Shown: positions 31,415-49,907, counted from the first letter of the stretch. The stretch: 64,000 nt of DNA from Candidatus Bipolaricaulota bacterium (GCA_030603215.1 JAUVYF010000001.1:9257-73256); one strand, 5' to 3'. The notes: generated by a model not told the origin, from the letters alone. Program-made: numbers and translations.

Positions 31415-31933
31415 TTACCCCTTGTCTTGCAAGCGTTCGGCATGCTCAATCAATTGCTCCATATCGGAATTACTGAGCGAAGCCGTATAAGCCAGCAATC
31501 TTAGATCGAGGTTCTCATGCGTCATTTCTTCCTGGAGGCGATTATGGAACGCTCGTTCGACAAGACGGGGCGCCTTCCGGTGAACATTGCTATCGATGAA
31601 ATTAACCCGCCATTCTGGGAACTTGTTCAGACAGCCCTTGCTAATCTCTAGCAGATGCTGCAGGTGAGGCTCTCGAGTTTCCAAGATCCCATTCAGTTGA
31701 TTCACCACGGATTGGTTGTCAGCGAAGAATATCACTGACTGTGGCGAGTAAGCAAGCGTCCGTTTGCATCCTTCTATTAGGGCTTGGTACACAACTGCTT
31801 GCGGAATACTCCTGCCAATGAGCTTGGAAACCTCTTCTATGACGTTTCCCTGCTTGTCTGTAATAGCAATCCCAATCGCAGCCGCTCCTGGCTTACCTCG
31901 CGCCTTCCCAGCCACGTAAACAAATAGTTTCTC
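31415..31933 (-). CDS. RNase H-family (ribonuclease HI-like) protein
   Basis: MEKLFVYVAGKARGKPGAAAIGIAITD...VVYQALIEGCKRT...VIFFADNQSVVNQLNG shows the RNase H-fold DEDD pattern of bacterial stand-alone RNase H domains. Confidence 0.6.
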   Translation of the reverse strand, partial: EKLFVYVAGKARGKPGAAAIGIAITDKQGNVIEEVSKLIGRSIPQAVVYQALIEGCKRTLAYSPQSVIFFADNQSVVNQLNGILETREPHLQHLLEISKGCLNKFPEWRVNFIDSNVHRKAPRLVERAFHNRLQEEMTHENLDLRLLAYTASLSNSDMEQLIEHAERLQDKG

Positions 31934-31945
31934 CATAGTTTCCTG

Positions 31946-32017
31946 TGGGCCCACCAGGATTCGAACCTGGGATCGACCGGTTATGAGCCGGGTGCTCTAC
32001 CGCTGAGCTATGGACCC
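31946..32017 (-). tRNA. tRNA-Met (anticodon CAT)
   Basis: The reverse complement reads GGGTCCATAGCTCAGCGGTAGAGCACCCGGCTCATAACCGGTCGATCCCAGGTTCGAATCCTGGTGGGCCCA, with acceptor stem GGGTCCA/TGGGCCC, anticodon loop CTCATAA and T-arm CCAGG-TTCGAAT-CCTGG. It is not possible to say from sequence alone whether this is an initiator or elongator tRNA-Met, or tRNA-Ile2. Confidence 0.85.
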
Positions 32018-32089: not shown

Positions 32090-32845
32090 TTACTGCTCTC
32101 TCCCGTAGCATATACTTAGCTGGATGCTTGCCTGCGTAGAATCTCCTCGTGTTATTGTTCCAATAACCTGAACACCTTCGTAATCTGTTTTTCTGTAAAC
32201 TAAGCCAATGGATAATCCAATCCTTGAGCTAGCAGCTTGCTCTGCTAAGTGTATCCTTGCCGTTAGCGCAAGCTTAGTGTTTGCGACAAATGTCAGCCCG
32301 CCCAGGAGTTCAATGCCCGTGGGTGAGATCCTGATCTCTGGGAGAACCATGATAGGGTCACTTGTCCAGCTGAATCCGATCCCAATGGTGTGTCCCACTA
32401 AGGGAATTGACAGATGAGCCTGTATGTCTGGGGTTCGATAGAAAACGTATCTTATCTTAAGAGAGCTTTGCCCTAATTCTCTTGTTGTGGTCATTGTTGT
32501 CTGCTCTGTGCCGTAGTAAAGGCTGACCCTTTGGGTCCATACAGAGGCGCTATGAACAGAAAGCTGACCTTGAACAGCCAATTGGCTGGTGATATCCATG
32601 AAACCGGCAAAGGTGAATACAAGCCCAACGGTTTTGTCAACATTGTGCCATAAGCCATAATCATCTATGGAATAGTACGGAATGGTATTGATATATCTCG
32701 AGACTTGTGCCGTGATTTGCCAAGCTTTCTCTCCTTCCCGAAATTGGAGTACGTCTATTCCTTGGGCAGTAATTGCAGTGAGTAGTAGTGTTACTAGCGC
32801 GCAAATGATACTAATCGACACCTTTCTAGTTAGCTCAGTATCCAT
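32090..32845 (-). CDS. hypothetical membrane protein with a beta-strand-rich extracytoplasmic domain; probable start at the internal Met at 32845 (the listed ORF extends to 33016)
   Basis: A charged N-terminus, one transmembrane helix (VSISIICALVTLLLTAITAQGI), then ~220 aa with alternating hydrophobic/polar residues (SLKIRYVFY, LALTARIHLAEQ, GLSIGLVY). No family was recognised. The 5' region overlaps the C39 gene in another frame. Confidence 0.5.
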   Translation of the reverse strand: MDTELTRKVSISIICALVTLLLTAITAQGIDVLQFREGEKAWQITAQVSRYINTIPYYSIDDYGLWHNVDKTVGLVFTFAGFMDITSQLAVQGQLSVHSASVWTQRVSLYYGTEQTTMTTTRELGQSSLKIRYVFYRTPDIQAHLSIPLVGHTIGIGFSWTSDPIMVLPEIRISPTGIELLGGLTFVANTKLALTARIHLAEQAASSRIGLSIGLVYRKTDYEGVQVIGTITRGDSTQASIQLSICYGREQ

Positions 32846-33510
32846 AGAAACATCTTCGAGAGTTGAATGGTTCTTGTTTTTTCCGCTATCTTCTCTTGAA
32901 TCTGTAGAATTGTCATTCTGGCTCGATCTGCGCTTCCTTGGTTTGGAGCGAATGCTAGGATTAATCCGTCCCAAGACCGACAAATCTCTACCAACGAAAT
33001 CACCCTCATTCCCCATGACGGATCGGCCAACACAATTCTCTGGCCGACCTGAGTTACCGCGACCGCGAAGTGGTCATCGGGTGTATCTAAGTGAATTAGG
33101 ACGGGTAGAGAGAGCTCGCGCAAGATTGTGCCCAGGTTGCCTTTGGGTATCTCATATCCCTTAGCCAGGATCCCTTTCTTGATACTGGCCTGTTTCAAAT
33201 CAAGCATTGAAACACCGTTCTCTGGAATCTCTCTGGCGAATTCATTCTCACTAACCTCAACTCCAAAGAAAGCTGAGAAGACAGTGGCAAGTGCAGCCGG
33301 TCCACAGCTATACAAGTTTTCCTGTTGATCAACCCCCTCGTATCTGAGCTCCCTGTAAGAGATCACTGGCCATCCATCAGCCGAGAGGAAGAATGCGGCA
33401 GCGATGATGCCTGCCAGAAATAGACCTGCTATGGTATGATGGAAACTAGGCGGGTTGTGCATAGGAAGATTCATGTAAACAACGCGGGAAGCACTCCTCG
33501 AGCTACCCAA
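32830..33510 (-). CDS. standalone peptidase C39-family (bacteriocin-processing-type papain-like cysteine peptidase) domain protein with an N-terminal transmembrane anchor
   Basis: The Cys motif ENLYSCGPAALATVFSAFFG, the His motif TPDDHFAVAVTQV and the Asp motif IVLADPSWG occur in the order and spacing of C39 domains. An N-terminal hydrophobic segment (IAGLFLAGIIAAAFFL) is present. The start may be Met13 or Met17. Confidence 0.7.
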   Translation of the reverse strand: MGSSRSASRVVYMNLPMHNPPSFHHTIAGLFLAGIIAAAFFLSADGWPVISYRELRYEGVDQQENLYSCGPAALATVFSAFFGVEVSENEFAREIPENGVSMLDLKQASIKKGILAKGYEIPKGNLGTILRELSLPVLIHLDTPDDHFAVAVTQVGQRIVLADPSWGMRVISLVEICRSWDGLILAFAPNQGSADRARMTILQIQEKIAEKTRTIQLSKMFLWILS

Positions 33511-33785
33511 GTGGTTCCTATGACAAAAAGCCCAGTCTCAATAATGGAGAAGCACGGTATCCTTATTCCCATGTGCAGACCCCAGAATAGTACCGTTATG
33601 GTTACTAGCAAGAGGATTGTCCATTTATACATCTTGCAGTACCGCGCTGTATCGTTAAGCCCCTTATGCATAACTATGCACCGGAGGAACACAATACAAG
33701 CAACGCACGTAATGCCAATAACAAAGAACAACAGCACTCCCAAAGCTGTTAACTTCAGATAGGTAAGCCAGTATGGCATTGTCAT
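33471..33785 (-). CDS. small polytopic membrane protein (104 aa, ~3 TM helices); immunity-protein-like by context
   Basis: Three hydrophobic helices (LTALGVLLFFVIGITCVACIVFL; WTILLLVTITVLFWGL; IETGLFVIGTTWVA). No recognisable family. Confidence 0.5.
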   Translation of the reverse strand: MTMPYWLTYLKLTALGVLLFFVIGITCVACIVFLRCIVMHKGLNDTARYCKMYKWTILLLVTITVLFWGLHMGIRIPCFSIIETGLFVIGTTWVARGVLPALFT

Positions 33786-33848
33786 ACTCCTTCTATTTGC
33801 CAGAGGTCAGTAGATATCTGGCCTCTGGCATGATTACGCGTTGTTCGA

Positions 33849-34244
33849 CTAGAACCAAGGAATAAAGTAGCCAACTGAAGCGCCCCAGCCAGCACCAGCT
33901 GCAGCGCCAACTCCTGCCGCGTGAGCGAGTCCACGCATGCTCCAATTGCCCCAGTTGCTTACTCCGTAGACACCAATTCCTGTAACTGTTCCCCCGATTG
34001 CACCCACTAGCGTAGCCCCAACCCAGGTGAAGAATCCTTCCCCTTCTACCTTTCTAAGTTTCTCATCAGCTACTTCTTTCCCTCCTTGTTTTTCTATCTG
34101 TTGGAAGGGGCAATCCAGCGGTTGATCTTCCTTTTGTTGTTGACTTGCTATCGTGACGGAAGTTTGAGCAAACGATCCGAAAACCGGTGCGATCACCATC
34201 AATAGAATCAGGCCAACGCTAAGGACACTCTTTAGTCTTGTCAC
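33849..34244 (-). CDS. secreted precursor with a Sec-type signal peptide, a charged middle segment and a glycine-rich hydrophobic C-terminal ~60 aa resembling class II bacteriocin cores
   Basis: MTRLKSVLSVGLILLMVIAPVFGSFAQT (signal peptide), then ...QQQKEDQPLDCPFQQIEKQGGKEVADEKLRKVEGEG..., then FFTWVGATLVGAIGGTVTGIGVYGVSNWGNWSMRGLAHAAGVGAAAGAGWGASVGYFIPWF with GxxxG and Trp-rich motifs. Confidence 0.55.
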   Translation of the reverse strand: MTRLKSVLSVGLILLMVIAPVFGSFAQTSVTIASQQQKEDQPLDCPFQQIEKQGGKEVADEKLRKVEGEGFFTWVGATLVGAIGGTVTGIGVYGVSNWGNWSMRGLAHAAGVGAAAGAGWGASVGYFIPWF

Positions 34245-34668
34245 TTCTTGCCTCCTTGTGTACGGTATGAAAGTTCATTGGGTTGTCATAATCGGAAAGG
34301 GACAACGAACATTACCGAGATCATCATATATATCACCTCCTCGTAGGCATTTATGTGTATAACACCTATTCTATAATAGATTCTATGCTTTGTCAAGAGA
34401 ACAAACTGCTAGATTGGGAGTTGATCAGATTACTACTAGTTATTAGAGAATGGTTTCTCGTATTAATGAAACAGAAGTAGACAGACATCAGTGGACGCAC
34501 TTAGTGATGGACCTAAATCCATGCTTTCGCCAAGGCGAACACGCCATATGGATATGGACACCTCGAAGCCCGGATTCTGTCCTCACAAGAGGAATGTTGT
34601 AGTATCAATTGCCGCTTAGACTTGAGTAACTATGAACAGAAAGACTCGCTGTTCTCGAGGTTTTGAAG

Positions 34669-38974: not shown

Positions 38975-39303
38975 CCACTTGTGCCCTCCATAAGCCTCTC
39001 CACGGGGATGTAGTCCCGATCGTAACCGAAGTAGCGAGGACCGAACGTGGCAATCCCCCGTTCTGTTCGCATCCGTTCGTGTGCGGGGATGAGGAGTACG
39101 GTGCCCCGATAGCCGTCGTACTCGCTGAGGTTCATCTGAATGGATCCTCGAAGCCTTTCGTAGCGCCAGAGAGGCTCGCGCTCATGCGAAAAGGTTTTTA
39201 TGGCGAGAGCCAAAAAGCGCCCCCCAAGGCAGCAGCAATGATGACCAGCATTTGCTTTATCATAGGCCTCTACTTGGCTAAGTTCTATTTCACACTTCCC
39301 CAT
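38971..39303 (-). CDS. hypothetical protein (110 aa), translationally coupled to the proline racemase gene
   Basis: A 4-nt overlap with the downstream gene, plus coding-like composition. No family was recognised (an HHCCC motif is present). Confidence 0.4.
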   Translation of the reverse strand: MGKCEIELSQVEAYDKANAGHHCCCLGGRFLALAIKTFSHEREPLWRYERLRGSIQMNLSEYDGYRGTVLLIPAHERMRTERGIATFGPRYFGYDRDYIPVERLMEGTSG

Positions 39304-39509
39304 TAGGACGAACCTCTCCTTTCCAGATGCTCACGGTTATCATCTTTTTCTCGCTTTTTTAGGTTATCACTCTAGGTTACTCCACTTATACTTAGCACAG
39401 CTACTAAAATTATCACCACACCTAAAGCCCTAAATCTCAACATGCTCTACCTCCTTTTGAGTACTTCAAAAAGCTTACCCGAAGGGCTTCCACTTATCCG
39501 TGGTTTTTC

Positions 39510-39662
39510 CTATATACCACCTCCTAATTTGCGAAGCCGCGTCTTATCAGGCATTTTCTCGACTCCGGTCTTTGCGTCCGTGACCTTACCATTGTATTTT
39601 TTGACAAGCTCCTCTTGCTTCTCAAGGTAGTATTTGAACTCCTTTTCCAGTGGCGAGGTCAT
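39510..39662 (-). CDS. small ORF (50 aa) with a good ribosome-binding site, MTSPLEKEFKYYLEKQEELVKKYNGKVTDAKTGVEKMPDKTRLRKLGGGI
   Basis: GGAGG lies 7 nt upstream of the ATG at 39662. The product is Lys/Glu-rich. The ORF is not in the six-frame track because it is shorter than 60 aa. Confidence 0.35.
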   Translation of the reverse strand: MTSPLEKEFKYYLEKQEELVKKYNGKVTDAKTGVEKMPDKTRLRKLGGGI

Positions 39663-39833
39663 GCTGTAGCCTCCTTTTCCTTCCGGCACTATTTTATTCT
39701 ACGCCGATAATGCTCAGCGCGTAAGGATTCGATTTCCAACCGAAAAGCACGAATTATGCCCAGTCTTTCTCCATGTGTCAACTGGGACCGCTTTCGAGTA
39801 CTTTTTTAGGTGAGGCAACAAGCTGTGAGGTCC

Positions 39834-40871
39834 TCAGGAGACGATCTGCGTTAACCTTCCTTGCTGCAGGCCCTCGCGGATCTCAAGCGCAATCCGGCGT
39901 CCGGTGGACATCTCACCGGCAAAATAGTATCGTGAATAGGGAGACCCAGCAGGGTAGAGGTTTGTCCCGGCAACGATGCGCGCGGAAAGCTCAACCGCGA
40001 CGAATTTCATGTTGTCCTGACACACCATCTCCAAGCAGAACGGACCGATCAACCCAGGGGGGAAGAGGCGCTGCGAGGAAGCGACCAATCCCTCGGCGTC
40101 GGACAACAGTTGAGGGAGGAGCGACTCCCGTACCACCAGCGGTCGGTTGCCCACCACCACGTAGGAAGGGGAACCGTCGATGAACTCGCGGTAGCGATAG
40201 AGCTCATCGATGTTGGTCTCATCGCGGCGATCGATCCCCAAGATCTCCACCCGGTCGCGCATCTTAGAATAGAAGTAATGTGGGTAGTAGCGGGTCCCGA
40301 TGAGATATTCCTGAAACGTGTACTGATCGATCATTGCTTTATCGAGGTTCTGTTGTAGCTCCTCGCGATTCGCCGCGCTGATAAGGCCCGCTCCTCCCTT
40401 TGCTCCGGAGAGCTTGGCGATCACTGGGCCATCGACGGCAGCAAGATCCGGGTAGTTCCTGGGAACAGGGACCCCGGCCGATACCAACCACTCCCGCTGC
40501 TTGCGCCGATCCGTCTCCCAGTTGAGTACGGTTTTGTTTCCGAAAACAGGGACCCGCAGGCGATCCAAAATCGCCTGCGCCCCTACGTACTCCACAAAGG
40601 AGCCGTGTGGTATCAAGATCGCGTTCTCCGCCAACAGCTCCTCCTGAACGTCATCGGTCAGCAGATCGGAGAAGCGTTCGACCACGATCAGCCGATCGGG
40701 AGAAGCAAGGGGAAACGAAGAATAGAGCTTAGCGCGCGCTTGCGTGCAGACAAGAACAGTGCGAAACCCCTCTTGCCGCGCCCCGTGGATGATCTGCAGA
40801 GCGGAGTGGGAACCGATGGTGGCGATAGCTATCTTGTCCTGATTATAGCTAGCGATTACCTCACTGTTCAT
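39834..40871 (-). CDS. purP: PurP-family ATP-grasp enzyme (5-formaminoimidazole-4-carboxamide ribotide synthetase, archaeal type), paralog 1
   Basis: The internal Met at 40871 overlaps the upstream gene's stop (ATGA). MNSEVIASYNQDKIAIATIGSHSALQIIHGARQEGFRTVLVC... matches the PurP N-terminal domain (DUF1246), and the C-terminal ATP-grasp-like region matches DUF1297. Confidence 0.75.
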   Translation of the reverse strand: MNSEVIASYNQDKIAIATIGSHSALQIIHGARQEGFRTVLVCTQARAKLYSSFPLASPDRLIVVERFSDLLTDDVQEELLAENAILIPHGSFVEYVGAQAILDRLRVPVFGNKTVLNWETDRRKQREWLVSAGVPVPRNYPDLAAVDGPVIAKLSGAKGGAGLISAANREELQQNLDKAMIDQYTFQEYLIGTRYYPHYFYSKMRDRVEILGIDRRDETNIDELYRYREFIDGSPSYVVVGNRPLVVRESLLPQLLSDAEGLVASSQRLFPPGLIGPFCLEMVCQDNMKFVAVELSARIVAGTNLYPAGSPYSRYYFAGEMSTGRRIALEIREGLQQGRLTQIVS

Positions 40872-41965
40872 GTCACGATCTCCCCGAGGCGACTTTCTTC
40901 TTTCGCCCGCAGGATCTCCATCGCCACCCGCCTTCCTGGCCCAACCTCCTTCATGTATTTGTATTTCATGTACGGTGAGGTGGTCTCCACACACGGGCAG
41001 CCAGGGACACGCGGGCTGACATCGAAGATCACGAACTCCAGCTCCTTGGTGATCGCCCCTTGCAGGGCGAACAGCCCGACCATCCCCGGCGGATACTCAC
41101 GCTTACAGGCGTCGACAAACCGCCTCCCAGAAGCGAAGATCTTGCTCAGTTGCGACTCGCGCAGGGTGGCCCCCATATGGCCGATCTCCACGTTCTGCGG
41201 CCGGAGGTCGATCGCCAACTGCTGCGCAGCGGGGAGGTGAAGGAGACCATCGAGGTCGGTCTGAATGCGGCGGTCGAACCCAAGGAGGTCGATCTCGTCG
41301 CTCAACGGAGACCAGAAGAAATTGGCGTTTAACAGGGCGCCGACCACAAACTCCTCGATCACTGCATTAGCTAGTCCCTGCTCGCTGATCCGTCCCTCGG
41401 TCAGCGCTCGCTCGGCCGCGGCGCGAAACGACTCCGGGGAGGTGGCGAAGAAGAACGCCCGTTCTAAGGGTCGATCCTTCTCCTGTGCCTTGACGATCAC
41501 CAGGCGGTCGATCTCATCACTGTTGGCAAAGGGTTTGGGCCGACGCAGACCGGCCTTGTCCAGCAGGTAGTACTGATCGCGGGGAACGCCCCGCTCCTCG
41601 CTGCGGAGCAAGAACCGATTTCCCATGATCGGAACGCGAAACTCGTTCTCGATCCGGTCGTAGCCCACATAGCAGGAGAAGGAGCGGTTGGGGACGAACA
41701 GGGTGTTAAGCGAGCGCAGCCGTTCCTGAATCTCCGGCTCCCCCAGGTCGCGGAAGTGTTCGAGGACGATGACATGGTCGAACAAGTTGCGGTACTCCTT
41801 CTCGTACACCGCCTCCCGCCCGCGCTCGCACACCACTACCGTCTCCAACCCTTCTTGCTTTGCCCCGTAGCCGATCTCCAGTGCGGAATGGGAGCCGAGC
41901 ACTCCTACTCGCACTTCGTTGGAATAGGACGAGACAATCGCTTCAATATCGCTCTTCTCGATCAC
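40868..41965 (-). CDS. purP: PurP-family ATP-grasp enzyme, paralog 2
   Basis: ...VRVGVLGSHSALEIGYGAKQEGLETVVVCE... has the same architecture as paralog 1. The two are clearly diverged from one another. Confidence 0.75.
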   Translation of the reverse strand: MIEKSDIEAIVSSYSNEVRVGVLGSHSALEIGYGAKQEGLETVVVCERGREAVYEKEYRNLFDHVIVLEHFRDLGEPEIQERLRSLNTLFVPNRSFSCYVGYDRIENEFRVPIMGNRFLLRSEERGVPRDQYYLLDKAGLRRPKPFANSDEIDRLVIVKAQEKDRPLERAFFFATSPESFRAAAERALTEGRISEQGLANAVIEEFVVGALLNANFFWSPLSDEIDLLGFDRRIQTDLDGLLHLPAAQQLAIDLRPQNVEIGHMGATLRESQLSKIFASGRRFVDACKREYPPGMVGLFALQGAITKELEFVIFDVSPRVPGCPCVETTSPYMKYKYMKEVGPGRRVAMEILRAKEESRLGEIVT

Positions 41966-43422
41966 TTGACTTCCTCCTGTGGGGACAACGATTTTCCTGC
42001 TAGGCCGCTCTCCACTCGCCGAAGCGTCTGTCCGCTTTCTTCGATCGCCAGTTCGGCGAGCTCGCGCGCGTAACCAATATAGCCGCTCGGGGTGAGGCGG
42101 GCCAGCTTTCCCTCAGCCAGGCTCAGCCCTTCGACAAGGGCGGCGAATCCGGCCTCATCGATCCTCTCCCCGTTTATCCGGGCCTTCACCCTCTCGAAGC
42201 CGTCAACCACCCCTTGCCGGCGCAGCGCAATCTGAGCCGCTTCGGCCAACACCTCAAAGTGCCGAGACAGATCAGTCGCTATCCCCTGCTTGTGCGCCGA
42301 AATCTTTTTCAATCCGCTTTGGAGGCGCTGGTAGGCGAGCAGACCGTGGGCAAGCGCGGTCCCGATTGTCCGTCTTACTGTCGATCCGGATAGGTCCCGC
42401 TGCAGGCGGGAACGGGTGAGGTAGTTCGCCAAGAAGCACAGGTCACAGTTCGCCTTAGCCAGGTTCCCTTCACTATTTTCGAAGTCGATCGGGTTCACCT
42501 TATGGGGCATGGTCGATGATCCGACCGCCTGTTTCCCGTGGGAAAGCCGCAGATATCCCAGGGACAGATAGAGCCAGACGTCGACGGCAAGATCGAGGAG
42601 GACGTTGTTCACCCGCGCCACGGCGGTAAGCAACGCGGCCAGCTCATCGTTTCCCTGCACCTGGGTGGTGACCGGGCTCGGTTCGAGGCCTAAATTGCGG
42701 ACGAAACGACGGGCAAACTCGATCCAATCAACATCTGGATAGGCGAAACGATGGGCGTTGAGGTTCCCCGTTGCGCCGCCCAGCTTGCCGGGCAGTCGCT
42801 GCCGGGCCAGCTCTTCGATCCCGTGACTAAGCCGCAACAGATAGACGGAAAACTCCTTTCCCAACGTGGTGGGGCTCGCTGGTTGACCGTGCGTATGCCC
42901 GAGCATGGGAAGCGCCTTGTACTCTTCCCCGAGGGCGCTCAACCGGTCTGCCACCCGCAGGAGAGCGGGGAGGATGACCACCTGCATGGCGCGGTGGATC
43001 AGGCGGCCGTAGGCGAGGTTATCGACATCCTCCGAGGTGAGAGCAAAATGGGTCCATGCGTTGAGCCTAGCCAATCCGACCGCGGTTAGCCTCTCCCGCA
43101 GGTAGTACTCCACCGCCTTAACGTCGTGTGCGGTCGGCCCGATTCCTCCTCTTCCCGCCCGCTCGATCTGGGATACCGCAGCGGCATCTTGTATGGAGAA
43201 TTGGCGATAGATTCCGTGAAGCGCCCTTTGCTCCTCATCATCGAGGGAGAACGGGATCTCCTCCACCTCTCTTAGGGCAAGGAGATACTTCACCTCGATC
43301 GTCGTCCGTTCCTTAATCAGAGCGTACTCGGAGAAGTACTCTTCAAGGACGCGAGTGTGGTTATCGTAACGTCCATCGATCGGCGAGATCGCCTTAAGCG
43401 CGTCTATATCGTCCACAGTCAC
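41962..43422 (-). CDS. purB: adenylosuccinate lyase
   Basis: A 486-aa protein of the fumarate-lyase superfamily carrying the signature GHTHGQPASPTTLGKEF. Confidence 0.9.
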   Translation of the reverse strand: MTVDDIDALKAISPIDGRYDNHTRVLEEYFSEYALIKERTTIEVKYLLALREVEEIPFSLDDEEQRALHGIYRQFSIQDAAAVSQIERAGRGGIGPTAHDVKAVEYYLRERLTAVGLARLNAWTHFALTSEDVDNLAYGRLIHRAMQVVILPALLRVADRLSALGEEYKALPMLGHTHGQPASPTTLGKEFSVYLLRLSHGIEELARQRLPGKLGGATGNLNAHRFAYPDVDWIEFARRFVRNLGLEPSPVTTQVQGNDELAALLTAVARVNNVLLDLAVDVWLYLSLGYLRLSHGKQAVGSSTMPHKVNPIDFENSEGNLAKANCDLCFLANYLTRSRLQRDLSGSTVRRTIGTALAHGLLAYQRLQSGLKKISAHKQGIATDLSRHFEVLAEAAQIALRRQGVVDGFERVKARINGERIDEAGFAALVEGLSLAEGKLARLTPSGYIGYARELAELAIEESGQTLRRVESGLAGKSLSPQEEVK

Positions 43423-43453
43423 TCCTTCTAAACTTAGCTTAACTCAACGAACC

Positions 43454-45322
43454 CTATGAACCCAATGGACTCGACCATTCTTCAAGCTCTCCTACCAGCT
43501 TCTCCAGCTCGCGGGCCGCGAACCACTTTCTTCCTAAATAGCGGTTAGCCACCGCGCGGTAGACCGCGGCACACAGGTCACGAAATTCTGCGGGAAGAGG
43601 AAGGGGAGAACAAGTACAACCCTCTTGCCATCCCGGTCGGCCGGCGTGCGCTCGCTTAGCCTGGGTCACCGCTTCCACCCATTGCGGATTGTTACTCCGG
43701 TGGTAATTTCGCAGGACCTCTTTATTCACCGGGTGACCGGAGAATTGAAACCGGTTCTCATCCGGTGTCCCCACCACGTCGCAGACGATGATCTTCCCAT
43801 GGCAAACAGCAAATTCCAGTTTGCCATCGGCAATCTCCAGTCCTTGTTTCCTCGCTTGTGCGGACAGGATCTCTTCCACTTGCAGAGTGATCTCCTCCAT
43901 CTCACGAAAGAGAGCCTCGCTCACCCCAGAGAGCCGCGGTGCCTGTTCCCGGTCAAGGGGGCGATCGTACCCCTCCAGCTTGGTAAAGAACTCGACCATT
44001 GGATGAGGTAAAACTACCTCCTCCTCCGGCCATATGGCATGGTCGAGACCGAGCGCACCCGGGGTGTAGCGGGTACGCAGCGATGAGCCGCGGGGAACGG
44101 TGCGGCGATAGATCACCTCCAGGGGAACCAGAAAATCTCTCCCCGCCTCATGGAAGTAGCGCGGGTAGTCATAGCCACTGCCCGTCCATACCAACGGCGG
44201 CCGGTTGACCACCGTGATCGCCATCTCCGCGGAGGCATGCGCTAGCTCATTGTAAGGGACGGTCCTCCCTGAGGAGCGCACGCCGCGGTAGTGAGTGGTG
44301 ATGCCGGCGCGTTTGAGCGTCTCAAAGTTGTAGGCGCTCATCATGCACAACGACGCCCCTTTCCCGGGCAGAAGATCGGGCATCGCTCCCCAATCGAACA
44401 CCGAATAGCGATCGGTGAACAGGAAGCTTCCTTCCCCGGCACCGCTTGTTGTGGGAGGTTTGCTGATCGCCAATCGCTTGACCGAACCGACGGTAACGGC
44501 GGGAAAATGGTCCCCAGATCCTATCTCGTCGTTTATGTTATACCCTCCTCTGACCTCGCGGCCAAAGGCGACCAGGCGCGCTTTCTCCCCTTCCCCTTCG
44601 AGTCTAAAGTCCCTATTTGCCAGGTGACGAAGGGTGGCTAACAACAGCGGCAGTTCCCCACGCACCTCCACCTCGCGAATCTTGTTTACTAGCGGGTTTG
44701 TCTCGTACTCGGCAGCCTTGATCTGAGAGAACGGCTCCGTTATCAGCCTCCGCTGGCACTCCTCCCACAGGGATGCAAACCCCTCGCTACGCAGGGAGAC
44801 GGTGAAGTAGGAGATCGGCAGACCGGCATCCCATGCCGGGGTAGCGAGATGGACCTGGGCCCCGGCCACTTCTGCCTGTTCCTCGGCCAGCTTCCACATC
44901 ACCTCGCGCCAGCTCCCCTGGGGACCACCAGGCGGAGCTGGGTGGAGGTTGAACAGGTGGTAACGGCGAGAGAATTCATCGCTGGTGAACAACATGTACC
45001 CCACGAGCAGGATGGCATCGAATTGATATCCACTGATCAGGTTCACGATCTCGCGGTGATACAACACCCGCCAGTGCTCCCGATCAGTGCAAAAGAGCTG
45101 CGGCCGAAACCGGCGGGCGGAGAAGGGGATGATATCCATCTCCGGGCCGACGATCTCTCGCAGCCGGGGGGCATTTCCCGGCTCATCAAAGGCACAACTG
45201 GTGAAAACAAACGGGACATTTGCTTCTAACCTGCCTTCTCTTATTTCGGTGAGGATCCTTTCCACCAGTTTGATCCCGTTCTTTCCCCCGAACGAGCCGA
45301 AGATCCCGAAAGAATAAGTCAT
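43454..45322 (-). CDS. purC: bifunctional-looking fusion: an N-terminal formyltransferase-like (PurN/Fmt-fold) domain joined to a C-terminal SAICAR synthetase (PurC)
   Basis: The N-terminal ~230 aa read ...FDAILLVGYMLFTSDEFSRRYHLFNLHPAPPGG...AQVHLATPAWDAGLP, which parallels the PurN segment AGFMRILS...LLNIHPSLLP...HFVTDELDGGP with the Asn/His/Asp positions conserved. The C-terminal half reads DRYSVFDWGAMPDLLPGKGASLCMMSAYNFETL, matching the PurC DRISAFD...IPxKG region. Confidence 0.65.
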   Translation of the reverse strand: MTYSFGIFGSFGGKNGIKLVERILTEIREGRLEANVPFVFTSCAFDEPGNAPRLREIVGPEMDIIPFSARRFRPQLFCTDREHWRVLYHREIVNLISGYQFDAILLVGYMLFTSDEFSRRYHLFNLHPAPPGGPQGSWREVMWKLAEEQAEVAGAQVHLATPAWDAGLPISYFTVSLRSEGFASLWEECQRRLITEPFSQIKAAEYETNPLVNKIREVEVRGELPLLLATLRHLANRDFRLEGEGEKARLVAFGREVRGGYNINDEIGSGDHFPAVTVGSVKRLAISKPPTTSGAGEGSFLFTDRYSVFDWGAMPDLLPGKGASLCMMSAYNFETLKRAGITTHYRGVRSSGRTVPYNELAHASAEMAITVVNRPPLVWTGSGYDYPRYFHEAGRDFLVPLEVIYRRTVPRGSSLRTRYTPGALGLDHAIWPEEEVVLPHPMVEFFTKLEGYDRPLDREQAPRLSGVSEALFREMEEITLQVEEILSAQARKQGLEIADGKLEFAVCHGKIIVCDVVGTPDENRFQFSGHPVNKEVLRNYHRSNNPQWVEAVTQAKRAHAGRPGWQEGCTCSPLPLPAEFRDLCAAVYRAVANRYLGRKWFAARELEKLVGELEEWSSPLGS

Positions 45323-45359
45323 AGCACCTCCAAGTTAACGTCGGGCGCAAGACCCGACA

Positions 45360-46589
45360 CTACAAAACCATGGTAGCGTCGCACCTTGCCTGCCTGTGCC
45401 GGAACACCGGACGGACGTGCGACACAGCTTCACCTTTTGCATCCTGAACTTTACTCCCTACTCTTAGCCCCTGCGCTCCTGAGGAAAGGCCATATTCCAA
45501 CTGAGATCCCTGTTTTCCTTTGCTCTTTACCCGGATCATTGGCTGGGGTGTGATCTTTCCCGCTACCTTGCCCTCGATCCCTTTCTCGCGGGCAAAGGCA
45601 AGCACCTCCTGCGGCTCGTCGGTGATAATCAGGTGAGAGTTTCCCATGTTCCACACCTGGTAGGCCGCACGATCGGAAACCGTACCCCATTCCTGCAACG
45701 AGAGGAACTCCGGTTGTGGGGGATAGAGATTGTCAAGGTCTGCACCCAGGCCGCGTCGGCGCAGGATCCGCGCCAAGTTACCCGGGATTCCACCGCCAGT
45801 GACGTGGACAATCGCATGCACCGAGGCGCGGGGATCGCTATGGTAGCCGCCCCACAAATCGACAAGAAACGGGGTGAGGATGAGGGACGGGGTGAGGAGC
45901 CTCTCTCCCCAGGAGCCCTTGGTCAGCGGCTCCTCGTACCACCGCTCTCCCAATCGCGTGGTCAGTATTCGTCGGGCCAGGGTGAGGCCGTTTGACCTGA
46001 TTCCGCGGCTGTGCACAGCGATGATCGTGTCCCCAGGAGCCAGGGTCGAGCCATCGAGCAGCTTTCTTTCCTCGACAATGCCGATCACATCGGCATTCCA
46101 AATGTAGGGACTATCGCTTGTTCCGCGCACCTGTTCCCCAAGCTGAGCGATCTCCCCCCCGACCATGGCCACCCGCGCTACCCGACAGGCGCTTACCAGG
46201 CCGGAGAAGAGCTCGGAAACGAGGTCGGAATCAACAGCAGCGACGTCGAGACAGTTGGTGGCGGCGAACGGCTCTGCACCGACAGCGGCAGCATCGTCGG
46301 CAACCATCGCCATCAGGTCAAAAGCCATGGTGTGGTGTCGGTTCATCAGTTGGGCGATCAACACCTTGCTTCCAATTCCGTCGCTGTTCTTGACCAGATA
46401 CCCATCACCACCGGGGAGGCGAATCGGGCCGGATGTACCGTCCGTCAACGGGTAAGGAACGCCGAACCGCCCATCCCGAAAGGGAAAGGTAGCCTGGCTT
46501 GCTCGATAGGCAATCTGCGAGCAGAGCTCTCCTGCCTGCTGCGCCGCGGGGCCACCGGCATCCGGGAGCGAGTAGCGAGTCTTATTCAC
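45360..46589 (-). CDS. purM: phosphoribosylformylglycinamidine cyclo-ligase (AIR synthetase), with a ~60-aa Lys/Gly-rich C-terminal tail
   Basis: The PurM/AIRS N- and C-domains are present (...DGIGSKVLIAQ...MVGGEIAQLGE...). Confidence 0.85.
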   Translation of the reverse strand: MNKTRYSLPDAGGPAAQQAGELCSQIAYRASQATFPFRDGRFGVPYPLTDGTSGPIRLPGGDGYLVKNSDGIGSKVLIAQLMNRHHTMAFDLMAMVADDAAAVGAEPFAATNCLDVAAVDSDLVSELFSGLVSACRVARVAMVGGEIAQLGEQVRGTSDSPYIWNADVIGIVEERKLLDGSTLAPGDTIIAVHSRGIRSNGLTLARRILTTRLGERWYEEPLTKGSWGERLLTPSLILTPFLVDLWGGYHSDPRASVHAIVHVTGGGIPGNLARILRRRGLGADLDNLYPPQPEFLSLQEWGTVSDRAAYQVWNMGNSHLIITDEPQEVLAFAREKGIEGKVAGKITPQPMIRVKSKGKQGSQLEYGLSSGAQGLRVGSKVQDAKGEAVSHVRPVFRHRQARCDATMVL

Positions 46590-47361
46590 CTTCCCTCCCG
46601 GCGCTGTAATCGGCCATCCCCCGGAATATGGCGTAGCCTGGTCCGTAGCCTGACGTTTTTCCTCTGCGGGTCCAACTCGCGCCTTGATACCAATAGAAGG
46701 CCCGTTCGGGATGGGGCATCATCCCGAAGACATTTCCCTGTTGGTTGGTCAGCGCGGCGATGTCATCGAGCGAACCATTAGGGTTATACGGATATTCAGC
46801 TCGAGCACCGTCTGCCCCGACGTAGCGAAAGGCGACCTGCTTTCGTTCCACAAGTTTCTCCCACACCTCTGGCGGGGCGAGGAACCTCCCCTCAGCGTGA
46901 GCAACGGGAAGCTCGATAATCTCTCCCGGCTTCAGTCCGCGGGTGAACAGGTTATCGTTCTCCCGCCGCACCTGCACCGTGCGGCACTCAAAGCGGGCGG
47001 AGGCGTTGCGGGCGAGAGCCACCCGGGGGATGGCATCCTCTCCACCGGGGAGAATCCCCAGTTCCACTAATATCTGGAATCCATTGCAGATGCCAAGGAC
47101 GGGATAGCCATCAGCGATGAACCGCTGCAGTTCTGGGAGGAGAGAGCGAAGATAGGAAGCGAAGATCGCTCCGCTGCGCACGTAGTCCCCCGCGGAAAAA
47201 CCTCCCGGGATAACGAGCCCCTGAAACTCCGTCAGCCGACTCTTTCTTGCCAGGAGATCACCCACATGCACCAGATGTGGCTTAAGCCCCACCTGAGAAA
47301 GGGCGTGCATCGTCTCCGCTTCGTTGTTTGTCCCCTCCATCACCAGGACACAGACGTTCAT
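46582..47361 (-). CDS. purQ: FGAM synthase, glutaminase subunit
   Basis: MNVCVLVMEGTNNEAETMHA...GGFSAGDY...ICNGFQIL shows the class I glutamine amidotransferase catalytic Cys context. The start at 47361 overlaps the purL stop. Confidence 0.85.
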   Translation of the reverse strand: MNVCVLVMEGTNNEAETMHALSQVGLKPHLVHVGDLLARKSRLTEFQGLVIPGGFSAGDYVRSGAIFASYLRSLLPELQRFIADGYPVLGICNGFQILVELGILPGGEDAIPRVALARNASARFECRTVQVRRENDNLFTRGLKPGEIIELPVAHAEGRFLAPPEVWEKLVERKQVAFRYVGADGARAEYPYNPNGSLDDIAALTNQQGNVFGMMPHPERAFYWYQGASWTRRGKTSGYGPGYAIFRGMADYSAGREGE

Positions 47362-49673: not shown

Positions 49674-49906
49674 TCCTTAAGCTCCAGAATCCGGTAATCC
49701 TCGATCACCGGGTTAACAAGCACCGTCTCACAGAGCGCTTTCACATTGGCCGGTGTCGCTTTCTCCAGTTCAATCTCGTACATCTTTCCCACGCGTATTG
49801 CGCCGGTACCAGCGTAACCAAGCAGAGTGAGGGCTTGTTTGATCTTTGCCCCCTCGGGATCGAACACCCCCTGTTTTAGGTGGACGTAGATCGTCGCCTT
49901 CCCCAT
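49670..49906 (-). CDS. purS: FGAM synthase PurS subunit
   Basis: MGKATIYVHLKQGVFDPEGAKIKQALTLLGY...VRVGKMYEIEL is the PurS consensus. The start at 49906 lies immediately after the purF stop. Confidence 0.85.
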   Translation of the reverse strand: MGKATIYVHLKQGVFDPEGAKIKQALTLLGYAGTGAIRVGKMYEIELEKATPANVKALCETVLVNPVIEDYRILELKE

Positions 49907-49907
49907 C

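What the first reader, a model, noticed from the sequence alone, without database searches (positions are those of the whole stretch)
32090..34668. tRNA-Met-adjacent four-gene islet: glycine-rich secreted peptide, small membrane protein, standalone membrane-anchored C39 cysteine peptidase and a beta-rich membrane protein, with no ABC transporter. Candidate uncharacterised bacteriocin-like or membrane-active peptide system.
Directly downstream of tRNA-Met (31946-32017) lies a compact minus-strand operon behind a ~420-bp AT-rich, promoter-like leader (34245-34668). It contains four genes. (i) A 131-aa precursor with a Sec signal peptide, a charged spacer and a 60-aa Gly/Ala/Trp-rich hydrophobic C-terminus (GAIGGTVTGIGVYG...AAGVGAAAGAGWGASVGYFIPWF), which strongly resembles class II bacteriocin cores of the lactacin F / gassericin type. 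(ii) A 104-aa membrane protein with 3 TM helices, i.e. the size and topology of an immunity protein. (iii) A standalone C39 peptidase domain with all three catalytic residues (SCGPAALA, DHFAV, LADPSWG) and its own transmembrane anchor, but not fused to any ABC exporter. (iv) A 250-300-aa membrane protein with a large beta-rich domain of unknown family. The genes overlap or abut, which points to translational coupling. This combination is not a textbook arrangement. The precursor uses Sec and has no N-terminal double-Gly leader. Possibly the C39 protease cleaves at an internal site instead (candidates are ...EKQGG|K or ...VEGEG|FF), or the protease acts on another substrate. The islet's GC content looks lower by eye than the flanking pur operon.
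Basis: partly seen in the sequence, partly recalled or inferred. Interest (0 to 1): 0.75.

Follow-up and report, generated by a model that had tools for sequence, protein, structure and literature searches.

The report
Fap-like peptide export cassette, Bipolaricaulota
The four genes are real and always travel together. They look like a stripped-down relative of the Pseudomonas Fap amyloid-export machinery (a periplasmic double-glycine protease plus an outer-membrane barrel), here paired with a small glycine-zipper peptide and a small membrane protein in an uncultured deep-branching phylum.

Summary
On the minus strand at 32090-34244 lie four co-oriented genes:
- A: a 131-aa precursor with a Sec signal peptide and a Gly/Ala-rich tail.
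- B: a ~102-aa protein with three transmembrane segments.
- C: a 214-aa standalone C39 peptidase.
- D: a 251-aa beta-rich protein with a signal peptide.
B/C and C/D overlap.

The window comes from Candidatus Bipolaricaulota, a phylum with a toga-like outer membrane. The A-B-C-D order recurs at down to 21-34% identity in at least five genomic contexts. All four genes are under purifying selection.

C's nearest curated family is FapD. D is a 12-stranded outer-membrane barrel that relates distantly to FapF:
- AF2 model pLDDT 81.
- hhalign probability 95.5%.
- FapF is the only PDB sequence hit.

The precursor carries a conserved post-signal block, F..IEK.GG....D..L....GEG. Its second half matches a motif I found after the signal peptide of FapE-like proteins next to proteobacterial FapD genes.

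Best reading: Sec export, periplasmic C39 cleavage, then delivery of a ~60-aa glycine-zipper peptide to or through the D barrel. Whether the peptide is structural or antimicrobial remains open. I rate it a new variant of a known kind.

The parts
34245..34668 (-). AT-rich intergenic leader upstream of gene A. It holds the promoter-like site 34396-34368 and a Shine-Dalgarno AAGGAGG at 34257-34251.
   Evidence: GC 0.41. TTGACA-17-TAGAAT matches 11 of 12 positions. Sequence read directly. Rfam finds no RNA family here.
33849..34244 (-). Gene A, a 131-aa precursor. Residues 1-27 are a Sec-type signal peptide (34164-34244), residues 28-70 a charged propeptide, and residues 71-131 a Gly/Ala/aromatic-rich glycine-zipper core (33852-34034).
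   Evidence: ORF listed. Hydropathy shows only the signal peptide exceeds 1.5. Family alignment A5. dN/dS 0.25. Family members give weak glycine-zipper Pfam hits.
34035..34106 (-). Conserved recognition block of A, residues 47-70: F47-QQ-I50-EKQ-G54-G55-KEV-A-D60-EK-L63-RKVE-G68-E69-G70. It holds both candidate C39 cleavage sites.
   Evidence: G55, L63 and G68 are invariant in A5, and F47, I50, E69 and G70 nearly so. L100, found later, has A at position 55. The second half fits the spacing of the FapE-like motif (L at -7, G at -2).
33471..33785 (-). Gene B, a small protein with three transmembrane segments. It is 104 aa from ATG 33785, but more likely 102 aa from ATG 33779.
   Evidence: ORF and hydropathy. 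A gene of this size and type holds the same position in L001, L090, L091 and L092-L098, and longer B-like genes in L003, L004, L087 and L100. Sequence similarity to distant members is weak. dN/dS 0.07.
32830..33474 (-). Gene C, a 214-aa standalone C39 (double-glycine) cysteine peptidase with an N-terminal signal or anchor segment. Catalytic residues: Q51 (33322-33324), C57 (33304-33306), H135 (33070-33072), D151 (33022-33024).
   Evidence: Pfam PF03412 at 5e-20. Best NCBIfam match is C39_FapD. The four catalytic residues are invariant in A1. The family profile hits solved double-glycine peptidase domains at 1e-13 to 1e-15.
32090..32845 (-). Gene D, 251 aa. A signal peptide (residues 1-29) is followed by a 12-stranded beta-barrel distantly related to FapF.
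31945..32017 (-). tRNA-Met (CAT), the downstream neighbour, with its own promoter-like site at 32064-32036. Probably not part of the system.
   Evidence: ARAGORN and Rfam. Promoter scan. Cassettes in other genomic contexts have no adjacent tRNA.

Best explanation
This is a compact, Fap-like two-step maturation and export cassette of Candidatus Bipolaricaulota.

Proposed mechanism, with each step marked shown or inferred:
1. A is exported by Sec, and its N-terminal signal peptide is removed. This is inferred from the sequence.
2. C is a FapD-like C39 double-glycine peptidase acting outside the cytoplasm. It binds the conserved propeptide block (residues 47-70) and cuts it. The most likely site is G68-E69-G70; the alternative is after G54-G55. 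The active site and the motif conservation are shown. The cleavage itself is inferred.
3. The released peptide is about 60 aa long, Gly/Ala-rich, near-neutral and only borderline hydrophobic, with many glycine-zipper motifs. It is handed to D.
4. D is a minimal 12-stranded FapF-type barrel in the toga-like outer membrane. The peptide passes through D or inserts beside it. The fold and the remote homology are shown. The transport role is inferred from FapF.
5. B is a small inner-membrane protein. It most likely protects or shields the inner membrane from the membrane-active peptide, or escorts the peptide. This is inferred from position only.

The final role of the peptide is not determined. 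I lean towards a self-assembling surface or outer-membrane component rather than a toxin. The reason is that it is single-copy, vertically inherited alongside its neighbours, and as conserved as its machinery.
For: The cassette is a unit:
- D homologs are extremely rare: 10 cluster representatives among 1.84 billion proteins and 10 loci in 241 million metagenome records.
- Every D homolog with upstream DNA directly follows a C39 gene, usually overlapping it.
- 7 of 9 distinct cassettes, plus L100 and the close relatives, also carry an A-type precursor and a small polytopic membrane protein.
- At least five different genomic contexts are seen.
- Purifying selection acts on all four genes, and their dS (0.33-0.38) is similar to that of the flanks (0.28-0.31).

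C is an active double-glycine peptidase nearest to FapD:
- Pfam 5e-20.
- All 20 family members hit C39_FapD best, down to 7e-26.
- Q, C, H and D are invariant.
- PDB hits are to LahT, PCAT1 and ComA peptidase domains.
- 62 of 79 related standalone C39 loci in Proteobacteria, Nitrospirae and others have a FapF-like barrel within 3.5 kb downstream.

D is FapF-like. In addition, the D-family HMM hits Halomonas FapF at 1.3e-5, and three family members hit Pfam OMP_b-brl at best 9.7e-5.

The host has an outer membrane: PMC6092417 and bioRxiv 10.1101/2025.11.21.689855.

Substrate motif:
- The block is conserved in A5.
- A related motif, [LIV][STA]D.E[LM]A.[LI]RG[RG][FY], occurs after the signal peptide of the FapE-like ORF next to C39 genes. 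It is found in 20 of 100 immediately downstream ORFs against 28 of 5443 other ORFs, Fisher p = 2e-23.
- FapD protease activity is required for Fap secretion, and FapE is its suspected substrate (PMC5557850).
Against: - No step has been tested experimentally.
- D does not hit the FapF NCBIfam model or any Pfam model directly.
- D lacks FapF's coiled-coil and linker.
- Neither Gly site in A is a canonical GG with canonical spacing in every member. Position 54 is E, D or A in three members. The second site is G-E/Q-G, or G-E-L in L003.
- I derived the FapE-type motif after seeing two FapE sequences, so those two loci are not independent tests.
- L085 and L089 have C and D but no precursor within 5-6 kb.
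- B has no counterpart in Fap operons, and its homology across clades is weak.
- Signal peptides were judged by eye and hydropathy, not by a predictor.
Confidence: 0.62

Rival explanations
1. Microcin-like bacteriocin system. A is a Sec-exported pro-bacteriocin. C removes its double-glycine-type propeptide in the periplasm. D releases the toxin across the outer membrane. B is the immunity protein. This would be an ABC-independent route for a double-glycine peptide.
For: - The small Gly/Ala-rich hydrophobic core has 8-14 glycine-zipper motifs and near-zero charge, as in class II bacteriocins and class II microcins (the comparison is from established knowledge).
- Two family members weakly hit Bacteriocin_IIc at E = 0.15.
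- An adjacent small polytopic membrane protein diverges fastest between clades (18-27%) and is multiplied in L003, L087 and L100.
- The cassette sits in several different genomic contexts.
Against: - There is one precursor per cassette.
- A is as conserved as C and more conserved than D across clades (32-45%).
- dN/dS is 0.25 with no sign of diversifying selection, and dS equals that of the flanks with stable synteny.
- The homologous machinery (Fap, Fil) exports fibre subunits, not toxins.
- The Bacteriocin_IIc hits are insignificant, while the glycine-zipper outer-membrane families score better.
- No known bacteriocin uses Sec together with a periplasmic C39 peptidase.
Confidence: 0.25
2. 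A is not the substrate of C. C instead processes D or an unlinked protein, and A is simply a small envelope membrane protein anchored by its Gly-rich segments.
For: - L085 and L089 carry C and D without a nearby A.
- For FapD, cleavage of FapF itself has been proposed (PMC5557850).
- The hydrophobicity of the mature segments is borderline for membrane insertion, with a maximum 19-mer Kyte-Doolittle value of 1.4-1.9.
Against: - The only strongly conserved block of A outside the Gly-rich core is a leader-like helix ending in Gly residues. It resembles double-glycine leaders and the FapE-like motif.
- A co-occurs with C and D in nearly all cassettes.
- D has only about 12 residues between its signal peptide and the first strand, so there is little to cleave.
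Confidence: 0.1
3. Chance juxtaposition of unrelated genes, or mis-called ORFs, next to a tRNA.
For: A, B and D have no Pfam or NCBIfam assignment.
Against: - The order is conserved at 21-45% identity in at least five contexts.
- The genes overlap.
- All four are under purifying selection.
Confidence: 0.01

Closest known systems
Fap functional-amyloid secretion system of Pseudomonas (FapD C39 peptidase and FapF trimeric 12-stranded barrel; PDB 5O65; PMC5557850, PMC6173800)
   Same: - A Sec-exported standalone C39 peptidase is encoded beside a dedicated 12-stranded outer-membrane barrel.
- FapD is the best curated match for C.
- FapF is the top Foldseek hit, the only PDB sequence hit and a 95.5% hhalign match for D.
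- A Sec-exported client carries a leader-like motif, as FapE-like proteins do.
   Different: - No FapA, FapB, FapC or FapE homologs, and no Q/N-rich imperfect repeats.
- The cargo is a ~60-aa glycine-zipper peptide.
- D lacks the N-terminal coiled-coil and linker and has much shorter loops (222 aa mature against about 400).
- The gene order is precursor, membrane protein, C39, barrel.
- There is an extra inner-membrane protein, B.
- Scores fall far below the equivalog cutoffs (56 bits against 330 for FapD; no hit for FapF).
- The host is Bipolaricaulota, not Proteobacteria.
FilB/FilC (NCBIfam NF050078 'putative pilus system C39 family peptidase FilB' and NF050079 'FilC')
   Same: It is another pairing of a standalone C39 peptidase with a FapF-related barrel. 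All 20 members of the C family hit FilB, down to 4.7e-23. FapF-like ORFs also hit FilC.
   Different: Scores are far below the cutoffs. D does not hit FilC. I found no literature on Fil in the library searched, so its mechanism cannot be compared.
Peptidase-containing ABC transporters (PCAT1, ComA, LahT, CvaB) with class II bacteriocins or microcins carrying double-glycine leaders
   Same: The catalytic domain is homologous. The substrate has a leader-like amphipathic segment ending in Gly residues, followed by a small Gly-rich hydrophobic peptide.
   Different: - The peptidase is not fused to an ABC exporter and acts outside the cytoplasm.
- The leader is internal, placed after a Sec signal peptide.
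- The outer-membrane step uses a FapF-like barrel rather than TolC.
COG4313 / Phenol_MetA_deg outer-membrane channels (PDB 4RL8)
   Different: These are uptake channels for hydrophobic compounds, and no association with C39 peptidases has been reported for them (PMC6173800). D is always paired with a C39 gene.
Glycine-zipper outer-membrane proteins (Pfam Gly-zipper_YMGG, Gly-zipper_OmpA, Gly-zipper_Omp, Rick_17kDa_Anti; SlyB-type)
   Same: The mature part of A consists of two segments rich in small-xxx-small-xxx-small motifs. Five of 10 family members weakly hit Gly-zipper_YMGG, best E = 1.9e-4.
   Different: - A has no lipobox.
- The hits are below the gathering scores, and the window protein itself scores only E = 7.
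- Those families are not known to be matured by a C39 peptidase.

Membership tests
Peptidase C39 (double-glycine peptidase, Pfam PF03412) | Matches the family HMM above the gathering score | tested here: met
   72.1 bits against a cutoff of 22, E = 5e-20.
Peptidase C39 (double-glycine peptidase, Pfam PF03412) | Catalytic Cys and His, with the supporting Asp and oxyanion Gln | tested here: met
   Q51, C57, H135 and D151 are invariant in 20 homologs. The family aligns to solved LahT, PCAT1 and ComA peptidase domains.
Peptidase C39 (double-glycine peptidase, Pfam PF03412) | Cleaves after a Gly-Gly-type motif in a leader | not testable with these tools
   Candidate sites G54-G55 and G68-E69-G70 are conserved in the adjacent precursor. 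The cleavage itself needs mass spectrometry.
PCAT (peptidase-containing ABC transporter) | C39 domain fused to ABC transmembrane and ATPase domains | tested here: not met
   C is 214 aa and holds the peptidase domain only. The hits to ABC-fusion models cover only their N-terminal ~150 positions.
FapD (NCBIfam NF058616, equivalog) | Score at or above the curated cutoff (330 bits) | tested here: not met
   56 bits. FapD is the best-scoring family but falls far below the cutoff.
FapD (NCBIfam NF058616, equivalog) | Standalone, Sec-exported (periplasmic) C39 peptidase | tested here: inconclusive
   C is standalone. The N-terminal hydrophobic segment ends before a conserved WPV, and some homologs (L004, L090) have typical signal-peptide features. 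No predictor was run, and the topology is inferred.
FapD (NCBIfam NF058616, equivalog) | Encoded in an operon with a FapF-type barrel | tested here: met
   D overlaps the 3' end of C and is FapF-like.
Fap system (fapABCDEF) | Presence of amyloid subunits FapB/FapC with Q/N-rich repeats, plus FapA and FapE | tested here: not met
   A and B have no Pfam or NCBIfam hits. The A family shows no similarity to FapE beyond the short leader-like motif.
FapF (NCBIfam NF058560) | Matches the family HMM | tested here: not met
   No hit at E ≤ 10 for any of the 16 D-family members.
FapF (NCBIfam NF058560) | 12-stranded outer-membrane beta-barrel fold like PDB 5O65 | tested here: met
FapF (NCBIfam NF058560) | Detectable sequence homology to FapF | tested here: met
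   hhalign 95.5% probability, E = 1.5e-8, with shared DP(V/A)(M/I)(V/F) and G.(S/A)F(V/A)(A/L)N motifs. The D HMM hits Halomonas FapF at 1.3e-5. The only PDB sequence hits are FapF, at E = 1.6.
FapF (NCBIfam NF058560) | N-terminal periplasmic coiled-coil and linker; trimer | tested here: not met
   Only about 12 residues lie between the signal peptide and the first strand. The oligomeric state cannot be tested here.
Class II bacteriocin / class II microcin | N-terminal double-glycine leader without a Sec signal peptide, exported by a dedicated ABC-C39 transporter | tested here: not met
   A begins with a Sec-type signal peptide and the Gly motifs are internal. The cassette has no ABC transporter.
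Class II bacteriocin / class II microcin | Matches a bacteriocin family model (for example PF10439) | tested here: not met
   The window protein has no hit. Two of 10 family members hit at E = 0.15.
Class II bacteriocin / class II microcin | Antimicrobial activity and a cognate immunity protein | not testable with these tools
   B has the size and topology of an immunity protein, but that is not evidence of function.
Glycine-zipper families (PF13441, PF13436, PF13488, PF05433) | Matches a family HMM above the gathering score | tested here: not met
   The window protein scores E = 7 (6.9 bits against 28.9). The best family member scores 1.9e-4.
Glycine-zipper families (PF13441, PF13436, PF13488, PF05433) | Repeated small-xxx-small-xxx-small motifs in two hydrophobic segments | tested here: met
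   There are 8-14 overlapping motifs in the mature parts of six family members, with G+A at 32-47%.

The most novel reading that the evidence does not exclude
A previously undescribed export route for double-glycine-leader peptides that needs no ABC transporter. The order of steps would be Sec first, then a periplasmic C39 peptidase that reads an internal leader, then a minimal FapF-type barrel. In a toga-bearing deep-branching phylum this route would release either a microcin-like toxin (with B as immunity) or a glycine-zipper building block of the toga. The same internal leader logic, [LIV][ST]D.EL...RG[GR], would also identify FapE as the long-sought FapD substrate in Proteobacteria.
Probability: 0.3. 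Interest if true: 0.8.

Novelty: new variant of a known kind. Interest (0 to 1): 0.6.

Why it matters
FapD's protease activity is essential for Fap amyloid secretion, yet its substrate and recognition sequence are still described as undetermined (PMC5557850, PMC6173800, PMC9268375).

This four-gene cassette is a minimal natural version of the FapD/FapF pairing. It has one obvious small client, and that client has one conserved leader-like block, so peptidase specificity and barrel transport could be tested directly in E. coli. The related motif after the signal peptide of FapE-like proteins gives a concrete cleavage-site hypothesis for the Pseudomonas system, which matters for biofilms.

The finding also extends this type of secretion module to Bipolaricaulota. 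That phylum's toga-like outer membrane has almost no characterised proteins. Finally, it shows that double-glycine peptidases can be used after Sec export, not only on the cytoplasmic face of ABC exporters.

Tried and rejected
- Pfam and NCBIfam scans of A, B and D found no family.
- The first AF2 run of D, with six near-identical sequences, was unusable at pLDDT 33. Adding nine distant homologs gave pLDDT 81.
- The word-seeded homolog searches for A and D returned only close relatives.
It returned only proteobacterial-type loci and no Bipolaricaulota genomes, so a phyletic survey within the phylum was not possible.
- The afdb50 fold library was unavailable.
- The profile of the precursor family found nothing in the PDB.
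- jackhmmer seeded from FapF did not pull in D at E < 1e-4.
- Rfam found no riboswitch or small RNA in the 424-bp leader.
- Horizontally transferred islet: rejected as unsupported. GC differs little from the immediate neighbours, dS equals that of the flanks, synteny is shared with a ~75-80% identical relative, no integrase is nearby, and the tRNA adjacency does not recur.
- The longer starts (C at 226 aa, D at 308 aa): rejected in favour of 214 and 251 aa.
- B as one homogeneous family: not supported beyond position and topology.
- A literature search for FilB/FilC found nothing.


Full report
**What is there**

The window holds tRNA-Met (CAT) at 31945-32017 on the minus strand. Just upstream of it on that strand are four co-oriented ORFs.

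| Gene | Coordinates | Size | Features |
|---|---|---|---|
| A | 33849-34244 | 131 aa | GTG start, AAGGAGG 6 nt upstream |
| B | 33471-33785 | 104 aa (more likely 102 aa from ATG 33779, as in the L001 ortholog) | Three transmembrane segments |
| C | 32830-33474 | 214 aa | ATGA overlap with the B stop codon |
| D | 32090-32845 | 251 aa | 16-nt overlap with C |

- The 424-bp leader (34245-34668) has GC 0.41 and an 11-of-12 sigma-70-like promoter at 34396-34368. It contains no Rfam family.
- Hydropathy shows an N-terminal hydrophobic segment in A, C and D, and three segments in B.
- The longer starts given by the mechanical ORF list (226 and 308 aa) are not supported by most gene calls or by distant homologs.

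**Source organism**

The 90%-identity cluster of C contains NCBI proteins labelled Candidatus Bipolaricaulota. More distant homologs are labelled Acetothermia or Bipolaricaulota.

This phylum is reported to have an atypical diderm envelope with a toga-like outer membrane. It lacks LPS genes but has BamA-like genes (PMC6092417). The first isolate stains Gram-negative and shows outer and inner membranes by cryo-EM (bioRxiv 10.1101/2025.11.21.689855).

**The cassette is a conserved unit**

- D's family is very rare. phmmer against 1.84 billion cluster representatives finds 10. A metagenome scan of 241 million records finds 10 loci.
- In every locus with upstream DNA, D directly follows a C39 gene and usually overlaps it. 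This applies to L001, L003, L004, L085, L086, L087, L089, L090, L091, L092-L098, L099 and L100.
- L090 (134+104+227+251 aa) and L091 (137+105+226+254 aa) repeat the window's layout almost exactly, at 21-36% identity.
- An HMM of the precursor family finds one copy beside C and D in all cassettes except L085 and L089. It finds only one copy in the 64-kb window.
- The genomic contexts differ:
  - Proline-racemase and DAO genes with RNase H (window, L001).
  - IleRS (L004).
  - DUF3857-transglutaminase (L003, L087).
  - purL/purD (L090).
- Against L001, dN/dS is 0.25 for A, 0.07 for B, 0.28 for C and 0.18 for D. dS is 0.33-0.38, like the flanking DAO and RNase H genes at 0.28-0.31. The genes are therefore functional and have co-diverged with their neighbours.
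- The tRNA adjacency is confined to this lineage.
- Cassette GC (0.474) is close to that of the immediate neighbours (0.48-0.51). The higher-GC pur operon starts about 5 kb away.

**Protein C**

- It matches Pfam Peptidase_C39 at 5e-20.
- Q51, C57, H135 and D151 are invariant across 20 homologs.
- The family profile matches solved double-glycine peptidase domains (LahT, PCAT1, ComA) at 1e-13 to 1e-15.
- The best curated family for all 20 members is FapD, down to 7e-26, followed by FilB. All scores are far below the equivalog cutoffs.
- A scan of one genome per species with the C39 alignment returned 79 loci, mainly Paraburkholderia, Halomonas and Pseudomonas, with some Nitrospirae and deltaproteobacteria. 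In 62 of them a FapF-like barrel lies within 3.5 kb downstream. NCBIfam confirms sampled ones as FapF, with E down to 1e-198.
- In homologs the N-terminal hydrophobic segment of C looks like a cleavable signal peptide ending just before a conserved WPV. FapD is also Sec-exported and periplasmic (PMC5557850). Extracytoplasmic action is therefore inferred, not shown.

**Protein D**

- It has no Pfam or NCBIfam hit. Three family members hit OMP_b-brl at best 9.7e-5.
- With a 15-sequence alignment, AlphaFold2 gives pLDDT 81 and pTM 0.74. The model shows a signal peptide followed by about 12 long strands.
- The top Foldseek hit in the PDB is FapF (5O65_B, E = 3.9e-8).
- Sequence evidence adds specificity:
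  - The D-family HMM hits Halomonas FapF at 1.3e-5 among locus ORFs.
  - hhalign of the D family against a FapF alignment gives 95.5% probability and E = 1.5e-8, over a region with shared DP(V/A)(M/I)(V/F) and G.(S/A)F(V/A)(A/L)N motifs.
  - Among 177,635 distinct PDB sequences, the only hits at E ≤ 10 are the three FapF entries, aligned on the same motifs.
- D lacks FapF's coiled-coil and linker.

**Protein A and the candidate cleavage site**

- The family alignment shows a signal peptide, a charged spacer and one conserved block. After that come two Gly/Ala-rich segments separated by a polar loop.
- The conserved block is F47..I50-E-K-x-G54-G55-x-x-[VI]-x-D60-x-x-L63-x-x-x-x-G68-E69-G70.
- In A5, G55, L63 and G68 are invariant. 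G54 is E, D or A in three members. L100, found later, has GA at positions 54-55.
- If the cut follows E69, then V58, L63, V66 and G68 fall at positions -12, -7, -4 and -2. That is the classical spacing of double-glycine leaders, LSxxELxxIxGG (established knowledge).
- The ORF after FapD in Fap-type loci (FapE-like) carries a related motif after its signal peptide: [LIV][STA]D.E[LM]A.[LI]RG[RG][FY]. Several loci have a true RGG (L024, L045, L047, L059, L072).
- My regular expression for this motif hits 20 of 100 immediately downstream ORFs against 28 of 5443 other ORFs (Fisher p = 2e-23; shuffled rate 0.3%). The pattern was written after seeing two FapE sequences, so those two loci are not independent.
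- Rouse et al. found that FapD's catalytic Cys is needed for secretion and that FapE alone lacks N-terminal peptides, but they could not name the site (PMC5557850). Later reviews still call the roles unclear (PMC6173800, PMC9268375).
- The predicted mature peptides have the following properties:
  - Length 51-72 aa.
  - 32-47% Gly plus Ala.
  - Near-neutral charge.
  - Borderline hydrophobicity, with a maximum 19-mer Kyte-Doolittle value of 1.4-1.9.
  - 8-14 small-xxx-small-xxx-small motifs.
- Family members weakly match glycine-zipper families (best 1.9e-4). Bacteriocin_IIc scores only 0.15. All matches are sub-threshold.

**Protein B**

A small polytopic membrane protein always lies between A and C. 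L003, L087 and L100 have extra paralogs, which share a C-terminal Y-x-x-G-G-x-x-N-P-F tail. Sequence similarity to the window's B is weak: BLASTP E = 0.001 against L090 and not significant against L004. Fap operons have no equivalent.

**Interpretation**

The best-supported model is a minimal Fap-like two-step pathway:
1. Sec export of A.
2. Removal of its propeptide by the FapD-like peptidase C.
3. Delivery of the glycine-zipper peptide to or through the FapF-like barrel D.
4. B protecting or assisting at the inner membrane.

Shown: the gene unit, the active-site conservation, the barrel fold and remote FapF homology, and the motif conservation. Inferred: the topology of C, the cleavage site, the transport role of D and the role of B.

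The peptide's end function is open. Its conservation pattern and the fibre-exporting relatives favour a self-assembling envelope or surface component. Its composition, and B, keep a microcin-like toxin plausible.

**Novelty**

Co-located fapD/fapF homologs in five phyla beyond Proteobacteria have been noted (PMC6173800). The pairing itself is therefore known. The new elements are:
- The host phylum.
- The extremely divergent minimal barrel.
- The glycine-zipper cargo with an internal double-glycine-type leader.
- The added membrane protein.

I rate the cassette a new variant of a known kind. Its interest is moderate to good, mainly because it offers a simple test bed for the unresolved question of FapD specificity.

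Noticed in passing
Loci L024, L036-L037, L043, L045, L047, L055, L059-L061, L063-L065, L068, L071-L072, L076, L079-L081, L083 (the ORF immediately downstream of the C39 gene): FapE-like proteins in Fap-type operons carry a conserved double-glycine-leader-like motif just after their Sec signal peptide: [LIV][STA]D.E[LM]A.[LI]RG[RG][FY]. Several have a true RGG. The loci come from Proteobacteria, Nitrospirae and deltaproteobacteria. This is a concrete candidate for the undetermined FapD cleavage site. The papers I read do not mention it.
   Followed up: partly
window 33474-32830 (C), between residues 79 and 80: The window's C39 protein and its 90% cluster lack about 17 residues (NFISHYSRQDPDNKSTK in P0004) that all more distant homologs have. 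This is an in-frame, lineage-specific loop deletion between the catalytic Cys and His.
   Followed up: no
L003 5001-6956 and L087 7508-9472: In two cassettes from different contigs, a large secreted DUF3857 plus transglutaminase-core protein (about 650 aa) directly follows D. It may be an accessory component, for example one that cross-links or processes the exported peptide.
   Followed up: no
L003 4427-4948; L004 5479-5934; L087 4378-4938 and 5489-5980; L100 1656-2147 and 3292-3756: A family of 150-190-aa polytopic membrane proteins sits in or near the cassettes, often in two or three copies. Members share an R-x-Y-(K/R)-W-E-(I/L)-(L/F)-F loop motif and a C-terminal Y-(I/L)-x-G-G-x-x-N-P-F tail. 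No Pfam family matches.
   Followed up: partly
L090 1-2998 and window 39834-52792: The distant cassette L090 sits directly next to purL and purD. In the window, a pur operon (two PurP-like DUF1246/DUF1297 genes, purB, purC, purM, purL, purD) lies about 5 kb from the cassette. This may be coincidence or a remnant of an ancestral neighbourhood.
   Followed up: no
window about 39200-39900: GC content steps sharply from about 0.45-0.52 (25-39.5 kb) to 0.57-0.61 (39.8-53.6 kb). GC skew is strongly negative at 39.2-39.8 kb.
   Followed up: no
window 49908-51521 (-) and 43454-45322 (-): A 537-aa ORF inside the pur operon has no Pfam hit. The 622-aa purC-like ORF matches SAICAR synthetase only in residues 300-553, which leaves about 300 N-terminal residues unassigned.
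   Followed up: no
window 31415-31954 (-): The RNase H-like (RVT_3) ORF overlaps the tRNA-Met gene if its GTG start is used. The real start is probably the ATG near 31934 (MEKLFVY...), as in the 173-aa L001 ortholog.
   Followed up: no
window 31945-32017 (+): Rfam reports a sub-threshold 'Plastid-ycf2 5'UTR' match (43 bits against 65.7) on the strand opposite the tRNA-Met gene. It is almost certainly an artefact of the antisense tRNA sequence.
   Followed up: no
L008-L056, Paraburkholderia and Trinickia loci, ORF about 2.1-2.4 kb upstream of the C39 gene: A conserved 165-200-aa ORF carries the motif LV(T/G/S)D(T/S)DLTNAHGSSG, which also fits my leader pattern. It may be another client of the FapD-like peptidase in those Fap-type operons.
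   Followed up: no
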